Positions 6,273 through 53,806 of a stretch of DNA of 64,000 nt are shown one piece after another; position 1 is the stretch's first letter; the number at the start of each line of letters is the position of its first letter. The translations under genes were made by a program, and so were the position numbers. Below the pieces are notes generated by a model. The model was not told the origin of the DNA and ran no database searches. It saw nothing but the letters and a program-made list of their open reading frames with translations. Origin of the DNA: Octopus sinensis (taxonomy: Eukaryota); assembly GCF_006345805.1 (NCBI RefSeq), contig NC_043006.1, positions 10,726,001 to 10,790,000 of the forward strand, in the 5' to 3' direction.

Positions 6273-6601
6273 GATGTGAAATCCTCAAGAAATATACCAC
6301 GACGTCTACACATTTCTAACCTTGAACTCTCAACCTTGAACTTGTCCCGTTTGTTGTATTTTTATTTTCTCATATATTACCACTTTTTTACATTCATTTC
6401 ATATTCGTTAGTTGCTGCACGCATTTTTTTCTCTCCTTCTTTCTGTGTTTTTTTCTCTCTGTGTATCTTTCTGTTGAAGAGCGTAGGCTCGAAACGTTAA
6501 AGACTTGTTTTATTTATATTTCCTGAGCGCCATACTAATACAATTGTTTGTTTGTTTTCCACCTGCTTTCGTCTTTTGTCTATTTTCATAAAGCTTCCCG
6601 T
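6273..6601 (+). mobile_element. Short Penelope-terminus-like element (family P1) between (TA)n tracts
   Basis: Homologous to 14568-14720 and 38552-38715 (both minus); carries an HHR-like motif. Confidence 0.65.
6466..6503 (+). ncRNA. Minimal type-I hammerhead-like motif (variant core CUGUUGA)
   Basis: tcttt-CTGTTGA-a-GAGC gtag GCTC-GAAA-cg-TT-aaaga; sister copies read GAAA-cg-TA. Confidence 0.6.
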
Positions 6602-6640
6602 TATATATATATATATATATATATATATATATATATATAT

Positions 6641-7043
6641 AGGCGCAGGAGTGGCTGTGTGGTAAGTAGCTTGCTAACCAACCACATGGTTCCGGGTTCA
6701 GTCCCACTGCGTGGCATCTTGGGCAAGTGTTTTCTGCTATAGCCCCAGGCCGACCAATGCCTTGTGAGTGGATTTGGTAGACGGAAACTGAAAGAAGCCT
6801 GTCGTATATATGTATATACATATGTGTATGTATGTGTGTATGTCTGTGTTTGTCCCCCTAGCATTGCTTGACAACCGATGCTGGTGTGTTTACGTCCCCG
6901 TCACTAAGCGGTTCGGCAAAAGTGACCGATAGAATAAGTACTGGGCTTACAAAGAATAAGTCCCGGGTCGATTTGCTCGACTAAAGGCGGTGCTCCAGCA
7001 TGGCTGCAGTCAAATGACTGAAACAAGTAAAAGAGTAAAAGAG
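6641..7043 (+). mobile_element. SINE family B, full length (tRNA head, CORE-like segment, internal microsatellite, CR1-like tail)
   Basis: A-box tggctgtgtgg, B-box gggttcagtccc, cttgggcaagtg, tail ggcggtgctccagcatgg...actgaaacaag(taaaagag)n. Confidence 0.92.
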
Positions 7044-7960
7044 TATGTGTGTGTGTGTGCGTGTGTGCGTGTGTGTGCGTGTGTGTGTGTGTGTGTGTGT
7101 GTGTGTGTGCGTGCGTATGTATACACACACGCACATGCACACAGAGAAGCGCCGATGTTTTCTTATTGAACTTGAATTAACGTCACAATTTCTCAACTTG
7201 TACGTGAGTGTTTTGAGTGTGTGTATTCGTAGGAGAGTGAAATCGAGAGATGAGGAGCCCGAAAATAAAAAGTTAAATCCGAACGACAGCCTGGCGAGGA
7301 ATCTGTGCTTTACACTAACACTGATACTTAATTTCATACTCTAATACACAATTCAACCTTTATTAATTCAGCCCCTGTTATTCACAAAACGCACCTTGGT
7401 TTTAATTCATTTTTGCCAAAGCATAATTCCTAGTTGTGTCTAGATCTTCTTGCAGAATTTGATAAAGATTTCTCTCACAGGAATGTCACAATTCAAGACA
7501 AATGTCGATGCTTCTAGATACTCATAGTGAAGTGGAACATTTGCTGAAATGCATTCAACCGTGTAATTAAAAGGCGCAACTTTCTCTAGCCTTCTGAGAT
7601 CTGTCATCCCTCGTGTTCCCTTGTTTTCCTCAACCGAATTTTAAGATAGTGTCCATTCCTAATTGCAGTGTTTATTCATTAATTTTCATACTTCAAATTT
7701 CACTTAGCTGATGTTAATGCCCCTTGCTGACAGTTTCTAAATTTTAAACTCTCGGCGATTGCTTTTTTTTTTTCTGTCTTGTTATTTCAAAACCAATTTC
7801 ACATAATTGAAGATTTGCAACTCTCTTTTGCATATGTGACACAAGGGACCGTATAAACGGGATAGCCGGATTAATTGGAAGCCAATACACAAAACCTCAT
7901 ATTTTCAATATATAATCATACTAACAAATCTACTACTATATTATATTATATTATATAATC

Positions 7961-8215
7961 TGGAGGCGCGTGGCTTGGTGGTTAGAGTGTCCGCACCATG
8001 ACCGTAAGATTGTGGTTTCAATTCCTGGACCTGGCGACGCGTTGTGTTCTTGAGCAAAACACTTCATTTCACGTTGCTCCAGTCAACTCAGCTGGCAAAA
8101 ATGAGTAACGCTGCGATGGACTAGCGTCCCGTCCAGCTGGGGAACACATACGCCATAGAAATCGGGGAAACCGGGCCTATGAGCCTGGCTAGGCCTTAAA
8201 AGGGCGCATTTATTT
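7961..8215 (+). mobile_element. tRNA-derived SINE (family C/D variant)
   Basis: ggaggcgcgtggcttggtggttag...ggtttcaattcc head; CORE-like ttgtgttcttgagcaaaacactt; similar to 25912-26150. Confidence 0.85.
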
Positions 8216-8274
8216 TATTTATATCATATCATATTATATTATATTATGTAATAAAACAGAGTGTCTAATGTTGA

Positions 8275-50595: not shown

Positions 50596-51174
50596 ATGTG
50601 TGTGCCTGTGTATGTGTATGTGTGTGTGCGTGCGTGTGTGTGTAAACGTGGAGAGAGAGAGAGCAAGGAAGGAAGGAAGGAAGGTAACCGTCGGAAAACA
50701 AGCAGAAGATACAGTAGATATCAGGAGAAAAATGTAAAGAACGGAAGAAAGAAATAGAGAAATAGAAAGGAAAATGCCACCATCTTTGGCCTGGAGTAAT
50801 TGACAAATTGCATGTCTACGTGTTGTGCTTTTGTGTGAACAGCAGGCACAGAGTGAGGACATATTGGTCCAGAATAGATCAGCAGCAGATTATCGACATT
50901 AGGATAAAACTGTGATATGCAAACATGGCGACGATATTATAGCATCACGCAAAATCCAAATTTATGCTACACTGCAGGCGTTCTTGTAACTAAGTGTTGT
51001 AAAATGACGCTTATCTGATCAGGGGTCTGTGGTAATGTGTGAATTGAGTTTGTAATATTGTGTCAAGTAATTTTATGAATCAAGTAATTTTATATGTAGT
51101 TGGTTATCTGCTCTAATGCAAAAATATCTATTTTATTCAGTCCTATATTTAATATATATGTAAGTATTTAATAT

Positions 51175-51602
51175 AGTAATACAACACTTCGCAAATATCT
51201 CCTTCGAGTAAAACCACCAATAGAAGAGAATATGACCAAAGACTGCGTGTACTCCATCCCATGCAGCTGTGGTAGGTTATACAAAGGCGAAACATGCCGC
51301 CCGCTCAAAATAAGATTAGAATCGGGTATAGCTGATCAGGTGTGGAAAAATGGAGACTGCCTCCCCCTGTAGGATGAAGTTAAAATAATAGATAGAGAAC
51401 ACAATTGAAAAATACGAAACTTAAAGAAGCAGTATATATGATAGGACACAACAACTTCCTAAGCAGACCGAGTGCAGATATGAGCTGATATATGGGAACC
51501 GCTATATTAGATTTATAAGCCCTAAAATTCACTCCATACTTGCCCCACGAACATATGGCGTAGTGGTTAAGAGCGTGGGCTACTAACCTCAAGATTCCGA
51601 GT
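51175..51602 (+). mobile_element. Penelope-like element 3' fragment: GIY-YIG endonuclease pseudogene followed by a tRNA-like module
   Basis: Frame from 51175 reads ...KDCVYSIPCSCGRLYKGETCRPLKIRLE..SGIADQVW..KIIDRE, with stops; A-box tggcgtagtgg at 51556-51566. Confidence 0.85.
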
Positions 51603-51676
51603 CCTCTTTAAATGTTCACGTTTCGTTCCATTTCGATGGGATGTTCACTCATTGAGTAGCTTAACACTACACTACC

Positions 51677-51909
51677 TATTTCTTTACTACCCACAAGGGG
51701 CTAAACACAGAGAGGACAAACAAGGATAGACAAACGGGTTAAGTCGATTATATACGATTATATGCGTAACTGGTACTTATTTAATCGACCCTGAACGGAT
51801 GAAAGGCAAAGCCGACCTCGGCGGATTTTGAACTCAGAACTTAGCGGCAGACTATATACTGCTAAGCATTTCGCCCAGTATGCTAACGATTCTGCCAGCT
51901 CGTCGCCTT
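51677..51909 (-). mobile_element. SINE family A with TSD
   Basis: TSD cactacactacc. Confidence 0.88.
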
Positions 51910-53472
51910 AAATCACTACACTACCGTTCTACGGAATAGTAGTATGCCTACTTTACTTACACCAGCTTGGTGCATTTATTGGAATGTTCCATCAGTAATC
52001 ATGAATTTGAAAGCTGTGAATATATTTTGGTTTGCTATGGTTGCGTTAAGGTCCTACTGATAGCACTGTGAACGGTTTTGGTGATAATGTTATGTCTCAT
52101 GAAAGGGTATGCCTTGCAGGCGTTTTTCGATATTTACCGATAATGTGGATATCTACCATCCTGACATAATCGATATTTATTTTCTATCATAACGTGGGAA
52201 CTTAGGGATCTTCCTTATCGCTCTTATTGATAAAATATTTAGTAGCAAACTCCTGCTCCATATCAGAAGCGTAGCCCTTAAGGTGAATAGTGATGTGTCT
52301 ACCAAAAGCCTAGAAGAGACTTCTGTGGCTGTCAGCATTGTTGGTTTGTGTGTAAGAACGTATTTTTGTTAGTGTGTTTATATAAAGGAGGGAAGAAAGG
52401 AAGGAAACCGTCGAAAAACAAGCAGATGATACAGTAGATAACGGGAGAAAAATGTAAAGAACGGAAGAAAGAAATAGAGAAATAGATAGGAAAATGCCAC
52501 CATCTTTGGCCTGGAGTATATAATATTCATACTCATTCGTTATGTTTATTGTCCCTACTGTGGTGTTGTGTCTGTCCTTGTATTGTCCCCTCTGTGTTAG
52601 TGGCCTGAGTGCCAAATAACGAAAGTGTGTTTATATGAACGGGAATGTATTTAGGTATGCGTGAGTGTATGTAATGTGTGTGTAGGTGTGTGTTAGTATA
52701 TAAAAATGTATGTATGTGTATATGTGTATGTATGTATGTACGTATGCTTATAGATATGTGTATTTACGTGAGAGTGCAAGAGAGTAGGAAGCGTATGTAC
52801 TTATGTGTGTGTGTATGAGTGTGCGTGTGTGTGTGTGTGTGTGTTTGTGTTATCTCGAAACTTCAAGAATTGAACTAAATTTATGTATCACGCGTGTCCT
52901 AAGAATTGTGATCGATGTTTAAGTAGGTGAAGAAACAACGGAATTTGAATAGCAGTAGTGTGGGAAGGGTACAAACAGTAGCACTTGGCAGTCATTTGAC
53001 CAGCTAGCTTTGGGCATGTGTGTATACGCCTGTTTGAGATTGCACAGCAACAGATATAGACACGCATACGCACATTATACTCAGGACATTTATACATATA
53101 TATATGTCTATCTCCAGGTAATGTTACACAAATATACACATACATGTTCTTAGATGTGTACATATGGATGACCTGCTCTTTGCTTTACACGCACAAAGAC
53201 AAACACATTAACAGTATATATATATATATATATATATATATATATAATATATATATATATATATATATATATATATATATATAGAGATTCAGATGAATAT
53301 GGTACTTAATTTAAAGGCACCAGAATTTGGTATGGTATTATCCATATAGATCAAATGGGATGATTATACTTACGTTGCTTAATAAAATGAAGTAGCATGA
53401 AACGATTGTACTACACTACCTAGGATATCCTTGTTGCTTATTTTGATTATATATATATATATATATATATAC

Positions 53473-53806
53473 TTCGTATTCGGATTTGGTTTGCAAGAAT
53501 CTTTATGTGAGTTAGTGTGTTGCAGAATATTTTGTTGTGTCTAGGAAGAGGCAATTTCTTTTAGTGCCTTAGATTTTATCACATTCACTGATAAAGTTTC
53601 CACTCATTTTCTTATATATTTTTCAAAGATTTCCGTTGCGTCTTGCAACTTTTTCAGTAGCCATTGACTCTCATTGACTATTGAAAAAGTTGCAAGATGC
53701 AGCGAAAGTTTTCGAAAACTTAATAAGTAAATGAGTGGAATATTTACCGGTGAGTGTGTTAAATAATACGGCACTAAGATAATGATTTTCTCCAGACACA
53801 ACAAAA
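53473..53806. mobile_element. Fold-back element family P3, copy 3
   Basis: Arms 53530-53660 / 53678-53806; right arm cta-TTGAAAA-a-GTTGC aagat GCAGC-GAAA. Confidence 0.85.

What the first reader, a model, noticed from the sequence alone, without database searches (positions are those of the whole stretch)
6273..53806. Candidate system: many unrelated families of ORF-less, microsatellite-embedded fold-back elements carrying outward-facing minimal hammerhead ribozymes
Seen: about 11 inverted-repeat elements (12281, 13141, 16841, 23219, 24539, 32118, 35312, 39450, 42832, 44458, 53473), most in or beside (TA)n and often with one arm longer. Seen: about 15 motifs of the form stemI-C/U(U/C)GANGA-stemII-GAAA-palindrome-UH-stemI', in arms and in unfolded relatives; in arms they always read away from the fold. 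Established: Penelope-like elements carry minimal type-I hammerheads in their pseudo-LTRs, their palindromic stem III favours cleavage as dimers, and insertions often have inverted termini. Inference: these are a non-autonomous class reduced to two inverted ribozyme-bearing termini, mobilised in trans by Penelope RT/GIY-YIG, targeting (TA)n, and yielding long dsRNA hairpins if transcribed. I cannot establish novelty from sequence alone.
Basis: partly seen in the sequence, partly recalled or inferred. Interest (0 to 1): 0.85.

Follow-up and report, generated by a model that had tools for sequence, protein, structure and literature searches.

The report
Inverted Penelope retroelement stubs in microsatellites
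The hairpin-shaped repeats and small self-cutting-RNA motifs are real, but they are most likely the cut-down tail ends of Penelope-like jumping genes whose mirror-image half is likely made anew at each insertion, a known pattern of genomic debris rather than a new class of element.

Summary
All 11 named fold-backs exist, plus one more at 37666. Hammerhead-like motifs exceed chance (12 versus 1-2 per shuffle), and the 8 motifs in arms all read outward. However, only 5 of 11 named elements hold a full motif, only 23219 has two intact cores, and the youngest (35312) has none. Three copies of one family fold at different points, yet their short arm stops at the same place. Public contigs show the 35312 family ending at two places, the commoner one joined to (TA)n. 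This matches the published Penelope-like insertion: a 5'-truncated copy, an inverted second copy, a one-sided tail and a TA target. Several motifs resemble Hydra-clade hammerheads. The link to a Penelope ORF is untested, since no genome is held. A hairpin transcript is predicted to sequester the ribozyme. A dedicated two-ribozyme non-autonomous class is not supported. One junction (44458) argues against simple cDNA fold-back and hints at priming from both target strands. The scan noted this pattern before in other genomes.

The parts
12281..13001 (.). Fold-back: inverted left arm, a 61-nt spacer holding a second copy of the 3' end (pLTR-like, period about 313 nt), and a right arm with a 38-nt tail. 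(TA)n on both sides. Degenerate hammerhead in the left arm (core about 12517, minus strand).
13141..13776 (.). Fold-back whose fold cuts through the hammerhead. Stem II, GAAA and stem III remain in the left arm and spacer; the core is lost.
   Evidence: read by eye
16844..17072 (.). Fold-back with 95% arms joined at a 4-nt palindrome 10-14 nt upstream of the core, and a 65-nt tail on the right. Hydra-like hammerhead in each arm (cores 16936 + and 16912 -), each with one lesion besides the U4C change.
23219..23975 (.). Fold-back centred on a 12-bp perfect palindrome (23698-23709), with a SINE inserted in the left arm (about 23400-23616).
23867..23914 (+). Best hammerhead: intact core, 4-bp stem I, palindromic 6-nt stem III.
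23267..23314 (-). Partner hammerhead with an intact core in the left arm.
24540..24652 (.). Fold-back of 38-bp arms around a central (TA)16. No hammerhead.
32118..32453 (.). Family A copy 1: tail on the left (32118-32184). Arms start 8-9 nt upstream of a U3-A8 core (32306 -, 32332 +). The GAAA box is lost in both arms.
35272..36318 (.). Youngest fold-back: about 500-bp arms, 98% alike, tail on the left, (TA)n on both sides, internal GA repeat, no canonical hammerhead. High-copy family in public runs.
37666..37903 (.). Hammerhead with an intact core in the left arm (37729 -).
39450..39555 (.). Fold-back with a 28-bp perfect central palindrome and (TA)n on the right. No hammerhead.
42832..42857 (.). 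26-bp perfect palindrome beside (TA)n; too short to assign.
44458..44678 (.). Family A copy 2: tail on the left arm, but the longer 5' part is on the short right arm. The junction has 5-7 nt of microhomology at or just before the predicted cleavage site.
53473..53803 (.). Family A copy 3 (older, 76% arms): tail on the left. Arms start 10 nt upstream of the cores (53657 -, 53681 +; U3-A8 in the right arm).
6273..6601 (+). Unfolded relative between two (TA)n runs. Minimal hammerhead at core 6471, with U at position 6.
14566..14800 (-). Unfolded relative of 6273 with a decayed motif.
15190..15250 (+). Hammerhead-like motif (core 15202) in an unfolded fragment.
20832..21063 (-). Unfolded distant relative between TA-rich runs. 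Minimal hammerhead at core 20956 (U4C).
36900..36950 (+). Degenerate hammerhead-like motif (core 36907); element ends not defined.
38553..38757 (-). Unfolded relative of 6273 between TA-rich runs, with a decayed motif.
47721..48325 (.). Partial tandem with 121-bp direct repeats 99% alike (pLTR-like) between TA-rich runs. Borderline motif at 48055 (-).
59751..60395 (+). U3-A8 hammerhead-like motif at 60070 with a 5-bp stem I.

Best explanation
These ORF-less fold-backs and their unfolded relatives are likely dead, 5'-truncated 3' ends of several families of endonuclease-bearing Penelope-like retroelements (some likely of the Hydra clade), and the inverted second arm is likely built anew during each insertion.

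Shown in the sequence: head-to-head arms, a one-sided tail, fold points that vary within one family, TA flanks, and partial tandems.

Inferred steps: (1) The element's RT/GIY-YIG protein nicks (TA)n. (2) Reverse transcription starts at one of two fixed sites near the RNA 3' end, which gives the one-sided tail. (3) It stops early, often near the hammerhead or at a self-complementary stretch. (4) A second, inverted copy is joined there, either by fold-back of the cDNA or by a second cDNA primed on the other target strand.

The hammerhead is a passenger of the 3' region. It reads outward because both arms are 3' ends, and it is predicted to be masked in any hairpin transcript.
For: (a) Family A (32118, 44458, 53473) has three different centres but the same short-arm end, within about 4 nt, and a 60-67-nt tail.
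(b) For the 35312 family, summed contig depth drops 4.6-, 2.0-, 4.5- and 2.6-fold across the tail boundary in the 4 runs laid. 22 loose ends in X1 join (TA)n at 35305, and depth tends to fall toward the fold (depth is no copy number).
(c) The two 35312 arms share letters at 35541 and 35704 where 76-100% of the family depth in X1-X3 has another letter, so both arms go back to one template or were homogenised.
(d) Published PLE insertions have 5' truncation, an inverted 5'-truncated copy, a 30-40-bp tail and (TA)n targets (PMC8557442). Penelope-13_HM has such an inverted copy with hammerheads on both strands. Dual minimal hammerheads 100-700 bp apart on opposite strands were reported in Schistosoma (PMC4209133).
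(e) Motif details match published ones: an extra base before stem II, a palindromic GAAA-CG-UH end and the U3-A8 covariation. The stem I and stem III shape of 16936 matches Hydra-2_aMil and Penelope-3_HM, and that of 23871 resembles Penelope-1_SK and Penelope-1_NV (compared by eye).
(f) The tail equals the stretch between two RT start sites, and the hammerhead is dispensable for insertion in vitro (PMC11167929).
(g) pLTR-like partial tandems occur in the same window (12281, 47721, 59751).
Against: No arm was tied to a Penelope ORF. No genome is held. No GIY-YIG or PLE RT was found among 150 of 249 filtered frames; the one strong hit is an RVT_1 domain at 4660-5316. The Hydra-1_Obim hammerhead motif gave only a chance match, and I saw no match by eye to the Naiad_Obim, Naiad_Ovul or Naiad_Omin 3' ends. 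Four of the 11 named elements lack any hammerhead, so 24539, 39450 and 42832 rest on shape alone. Tails of 60-67 nt are longer than the published 30-40 bp. No target-site duplication could be read. In 12281 both arms carry the 3'-end/5'-start junction, which a short tandem source would also give.
Confidence: 0.8

Rival explanations
1. One reading: a dedicated non-autonomous class, in which a short hairpin element with two ribozyme-bearing termini is transcribed and moved whole in trans by Penelope proteins.
For: No ORF in the stubs. In 3 of 6 fold-backs that keep a core, both arms begin 8-14 nt upstream of it, which could mark a fixed short RNA. 12281 shows a unit of about 313 nt. pLTRs sufficed for mobilisation in trans in Adineta (PMC3846280).
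Against: Centres differ among the 3 family A copies. The fold cuts the ribozyme in 2 elements. Only 1 of 11 has two intact cores. Hammerhead stems have probability 0 in all 3 whole-element folds computed. Unfolded relatives with motifs are about as many as folded ones.
Confidence: 0.05
2. Some families derive from short, linear, ORF-less source units (pLTR-derived, retrozyme-like, 200-550 nt) that are moved in trans and get inverted at insertion like any PLE RNA.
For: Partial tandems with short periods (about 313, 484 and 567 nt). Shared derived letters, including the lost GAAA box, in both arms of 32118. Non-autonomous Chlamys elements and pLTR-related retrozymes are described.
Against: A template jump during one insertion, or gene conversion between arms, gives the same picture. 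No array of more than two units was seen, and depth in the 35312 family has no sharp 5' edge in the part that could be laid.
Confidence: 0.12
3. The elements are MITEs or fold-back DNA transposons that insert at TA, and the hammerhead-like motifs are incidental.
For: Inverted arms and TA flanks. TIR-bounded elements do occur in the window (30107-30666, 32453-33559). The three shortest palindromes have no motif.
Against: One-sided tails at a fixed position, variable centres, unfolded single-arm relatives, and motif excess over shuffles.
Confidence: 0.03

Closest known systems
Insertions of EN+ Penelope-like elements with an inverted 5'-truncated copy and tail (Craig et al. 2021, PMC8557442, Fig. 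2 legend; Arkhipova et al. 2013, PMC3846280)
   Same: Head-to-head inverted 3' ends, a one-sided tail, palindromes at the inverted junction, partial tandems, (TA)n targets.
   Different: Here no ORF remains, so the whole insertion is a 26-1050-bp hairpin. Tails reach 60-67 nt in two families. In 44458 the longer 5' part and the tail lie on different arms.
Hydra clade PLEs, including Hydra-1_Obim of Octopus and Penelope-13_HM (PMC8557442 supplement)
   Same: (TA)n preference, hammerhead near the 3' end, extra bases beside stem II, and a 3-bp stem III with a short loop. Penelope-13_HM has two motifs on opposite strands.
   Different: No sequence match to Hydra-1_Obim. Protein features cannot be tested on stubs.
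Minimal hammerheads of metazoan PLEs (Cervera and de la Pena 2014, PMC4209133)
   Same: Extra base between 9 and 10.1, G10.1-C11.1 pair, palindromic 15.2-16.2, U3-A8 variant, and dual motifs on opposite strands 100-700 bp apart.
   Different: The U4C and A6U core letters seen here were not in the text parts I read; its supplement was not read.
Non-LTR retrozymes (PMC7229834; bioRxiv 10.64898/2026.07.22.740005)
   Same: ORF-less, a few hundred nt, type I hammerhead, PLE connection.
   Different: Retrozymes are head-to-tail tandems, mostly with canonical ribozymes. These are head-to-head with minimal, mostly decayed motifs.
MITEs / fold-back DNA transposons (recalled)
   Same: Inverted arms, no ORF, TA context.
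   Different: Asymmetric ends and variable centres.

Membership tests
EN+ Penelope-like element insertion | PLE-type RT plus GIY-YIG ORF upstream of the 3' end | not testable with these tools
   No genome held; none in 150 of 249 filtered window frames, as expected of stubs.
EN+ Penelope-like element insertion | Variable 5' truncation with a fixed 3' end | tested here: met
   Family A, 3 copies; 6273 family, 4 copies with similar 3' ends.
EN+ Penelope-like element insertion | Inverted 5'-truncated copy, head to head | tested here: met
   the motifs in all 5 elements with arm motifs scoring >=23 read outward.
EN+ Penelope-like element insertion | Optional tail at one end | tested here: met
   6 of 12 fold-backs clear; two-step 3' end in 4 of 4 runs.
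EN+ Penelope-like element insertion | Partial tandem / pLTR | tested here: met
   12281, 47721, 59751.
EN+ Penelope-like element insertion | Hammerhead near the 3' end | tested here: inconclusive
   Full motif in 6 of 12 fold-backs, part in 2, none in 4. Cleavage not tested.
EN+ Penelope-like element insertion | Target-site duplication | tested here: inconclusive
   Not readable in (TA)n; also often not discernible in PMC8557442.
Hydra clade | Clade-specific RT/EN features | not testable with these tools
   No coding sequence in the stubs.
Hydra clade | (TA)n target and Hydra-type hammerhead shape | tested here: met
   met for 16841 and 23219 by eye, suggestive for 12281 and 37666.
Non-LTR retrozyme | Head-to-tail tandem with a complete hammerhead in at least two consecutive units | tested here: not met
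   no tandem with two complete motifs (criterion).
MITE / TIR transposon | Symmetric terminal inverted repeats and a fixed internal structure | tested here: not met
   One-sided tails and variable centres.

The most novel reading that the evidence does not exclude
The stubs are a readable record of how Penelope-like elements make their inversions. An RT/EN dimer primes two cDNAs, one on each target strand and each from a different RT start site, and joins their 3' ends by microhomology. Synthesis often ends just upstream of, or inside, the hammerhead. 44458 (tail on one arm, longer 5' part on the other, 5-7-nt microhomology) cannot come from simple fold-back on the first cDNA. Thousands of such hairpins in one genome would make this open mechanistic question testable by counting alone.
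Probability: 0.3. Interest if true: 0.55.

Novelty: new member of a known kind. Interest (0 to 1): 0.27.

Why it matters
As a class the finding is ordinary, but it has three uses. (1) Annotation: such hairpins are easily filed as MITEs or microRNA-like hairpins (one search lists many sub-threshold microRNA hits over them), so PLE content would be undercounted. (2) Mechanism: how PLE inversions form is stated to be unresolved (PMC8557442; PMC11167929), and the positions of tail and spacer in stubs separate the models. (3) Twelve fold-backs in 64 kb would be a dense source of dsRNA for editing or small-RNA pathways if they are transcribed, which was not shown.

Tried and rejected
- Whole genome: not held.
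- The first motif scan found nothing because it demanded a longer stem III than minimal hammerheads have; corrected.
- Loose descriptors lose specificity: 12 versus 1-9 without a stem I requirement, and 5 versus 0-4 with two mismatches. At score 22-23 the count is at background level.
- Motifs at 56864, 60550 and 48055 are treated as doubtful.
- 27832-29008 is two copies of one dispersed SINE-like repeat in opposite orientation, not a member.
- The palindromes at 10150, 22122 and 49554 were left unassigned.
- The idea that the right flank of 44458 is a decayed tail was rejected: 352 of 2999 random segments score as well.
- Hydra-1_Obim motif: chance match only, 38 of 100 shuffles do as well.
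- Pfam: no GIY-YIG. Rfam: no hammerhead seen.
- Runs: no RNA holder listed. X18 is only guessed to be RNA, so nothing is claimed on expression or editing.
- One search gave no joints, and the tool skipped the part next to the fold as a repeat, so which arm owns the 35312 spacer is open.
- Folded alone, the motifs form stem I (0.54-0.71) but weak stem III (0-0.28), and the best 23871 fold is not the active form. This fits dimer-type motifs but is no evidence of cleavage.
- PMC5785218 (dimer cleavage paper) is not held.
- Scan look-ups by the 35312 sequence and by octopus-related words found no note on this family.
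Full report
Setting. The window is AT-rich animal DNA, dense in microsatellites and in dispersed SINE-like repeats. I take it to be from an octopus because the repeats look like octopus SINEs; that label is recalled and comes from no call. 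No whole genome is held, so all tests rest on the window, one laying of public contigs, and papers.

Observation. A masked self-comparison and arm-by-arm alignments confirm all 11 named fold-backs and add one at 37666 (42832 is a 26-bp perfect palindrome). Arms are 76-98% alike. Only 32118, 44458 and 53473 are related to each other (family A). Nine of 24 outer ends lie within 12 nt of (TA)>=4, against 2.6% for background positions and 1 of 22 and 2 of 14 for two SINE sets; I set some ends partly by the TA edge. Hammerhead-like motifs exceed chance: 6 versus a mean of 0.1 in 30 shuffles with a plain descriptor, and 12 versus 1-2 in each of 10 shuffles with a graded score tuned after seeing the motifs. 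Looser settings fall to background. All 8 arm motifs scoring >=23, from 5 elements, read outward. Coverage is uneven, however. Of the 11 named elements, 5 hold a full motif, 2 hold part of one and 4 hold none. Only 23219 has two intact cores. The youngest element, 35312, has a half core without a GAAA box. Rfam showed no hammerhead in the rows displayed (150 of 381; 6 of 6).

What it is. Family A is the key. Its three copies have different centres: a short TG/TA run in 32118, a 3-nt spacer in 53473, and a fold about 35-70 nt further downstream in 44458. Yet in all three the short arm stops within about 4 nt of the same place, 60-67 nt before the long arm ends. The hairpin is therefore not copied as a unit.

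The 35312 family behaves likewise in public data. 1317, 921, 479 and 62 contigs were laid from 4 runs. Summed depth drops 2.0- to 4.6-fold across the tail boundary in all four, and 22 loose ends in X1 join (TA)n at that boundary. Depth is no copy number, and the runs may be other species or individuals. Both arms of the window's copy share letters at 35541 and 35704 that are rare in those runs, so they go back to one template or were homogenised later.

Unfolded relatives with the same kind of motif sit between TA-rich runs (6273, 14566, 20832, 38553). Partial tandems occur at 12281, 47721 and 59751.

Comparison with print. Craig et al. 2021 (PMC8557442; passages; supplement searches and parts 2, 24 and 52 of 59) describe 5' truncation, partial tandems, an inverted 5'-truncated copy, a 30-40-bp one-sided tail and (TA)n targeting. 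They list Octopus Naiad and Hydra families, and Penelope-13_HM with hammerheads on both strands. Their Hydra motif table shows the stem shapes seen at 16936 and 23871 (compared by eye). Cervera and de la Pena 2014 (PMC4209133; text parts 1-2 of 4; supplement listed, not read, and it may hold further core variants) report minimal motifs with an extra base before stem II, the U3-A8 core seen in family A and at 60070, and dual motifs 100-700 bp apart on opposite strands. Arkhipova et al. 2013 (PMC3846280; passages) report head-to-head inversions with junction palindromes and propose self-priming. Frangieh et al. 2024 (PMC11167929; parts 1-2 of 4) show both target strands cut and extended, two RT start sites that define the tail, a predicted dimer, and a hammerhead dispensable in vitro.

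Also seen: PMC8969392, PMC6765202, PMC7229834 and PMC2997562 (passages); bioRxiv 10.64898/2026.07.22.740005 (part 1 of 5 and passages); PMC13282606 (part 1 of 3 and passages). PMC5785218 was not held. Eight searches (listings) showed no paper devoted to these hairpin stubs in cephalopods; subscription journals and Repbase were not searchable.

How it likely works. Inferred: a PLE protein nicks (TA)n, starts cDNA at one of two sites near the RNA 3' end, stops early, and an inverted second copy is joined at the stop. Shown: five of 11 centres examined are palindromic or TA-based (16841, 23219, 24539, 39450, 42832), and 32118 and 35312 have such a stretch at the junction. In 3 of 6 fold-backs that keep a core, both arms start 8-14 nt upstream of it; the others start about 51, 85 and 167 nt upstream. 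Two more folds lie inside the motif. The numbers are small and the pattern was noticed after the fact.

Two routes to the inversion remain. Fold-back on the first cDNA predicts that the loop and the tail lie on the same arm, and 12281 and probably 16841 fit this. In 44458 the longer 5' part is on the short arm, the tail is on the other arm, the junction has 5-7 nt of microhomology, and the short arm's flank is not a decayed tail (352 of 2999 random segments score as well). That favours two cDNAs primed on opposite strands, but it is one case.

The two motifs of an element lie on opposite strands, so one transcript holds one sense motif and its complement. In all 3 whole-element folds computed, the hammerhead stems fall from 0.5-0.97 (stems I or II, motif alone) to 0. 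Both arms of 32118 lack the GAAA box. Outward orientation follows from the geometry.

Against my reading. No arm is tied to a PLE ORF. None was found among 150 of 249 filtered frames, drawn from 444 frames of >=55 aa. There was no match to Hydra-1_Obim. Three short palindromes rest on shape alone, and 12281 could derive from a short tandem source.

Earlier scan notes. One search listed 8 of 23 notes, several of which reach the same reading in other genomes, one with 5' ends 8-12 nt upstream of the core. They are unchecked AI notes and add no independent support. I had formed the reading and noticed the clustering before that call.

Verdict. The structures are real and follow a known PLE insertion architecture. 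The families are probably uncurated members of it. Interest is 0.27, with a modest mechanistic lead.

Noticed in passing
window 6471, about 14690, about 38670: Three related unfolded copies all have U at hammerhead core position 6 (canonical A), so the family itself may carry a variant core. U4C occurs at 16912, 16936 and 20956.
   Followed up: partly
window 44578-44588: The junction of 44458 lies at or up to 7 nt before the predicted cleavage site of the family A hammerhead, compatible with a ribozyme-cut template.
   Followed up: partly
window 4066-6030 (-): Broken LINE-type RT reading frames; RVT_1 E=8e-21 at 4660-5316. A similar-looking C-terminal fragment lies at 57070-57486 (+).
   Followed up: no
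window 62040-64000 (-): Decayed RTE-like LINE fragment (label recalled from the translation; no Pfam hit).
   Followed up: no
window 55588-56235 (-): A 216-aa frame of ordinary complexity with no Pfam hit, perhaps a retroelement ORF1 remnant.
   Followed up: no
window 18271-18865: Five tandem copies of a 120-bp unit, 95% alike; no hammerhead scored there.
   Followed up: no
window 30107-30666 and 32453-33559: Two elements bounded by 38-59-bp terminal inverted repeats (MITE or mariner-like). The second begins exactly where the short arm of 32118 ends.
   Followed up: no
window 2122-2685, 9294-9715, 31011-31362: Head-to-tail arrays of a SINE-like repeat with a 184-bp period.
   Followed up: no
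window 648-965: A 157-bp direct tandem, 96% alike.
   Followed up: no
window 50687-50798 and 52407-52518: A 112-bp direct repeat, 96% alike and 1.7 kb apart, next to purine-rich runs; it could be pLTR-like ends of a longer insert.
   Followed up: no
window 53284-53447: A short insert between two (TA)n runs with a weak hammerhead-like 3' half (score 23.2).
   Followed up: partly
window 54016-54050: A short piece resembling the outer end of the 16844 arms, next to (TA)n (seen by eye).
   Followed up: no
window 20169-20268: A 100-N assembly gap; the stretch before it (19971-20167) repeats 47-240 at 86%.
   Followed up: no
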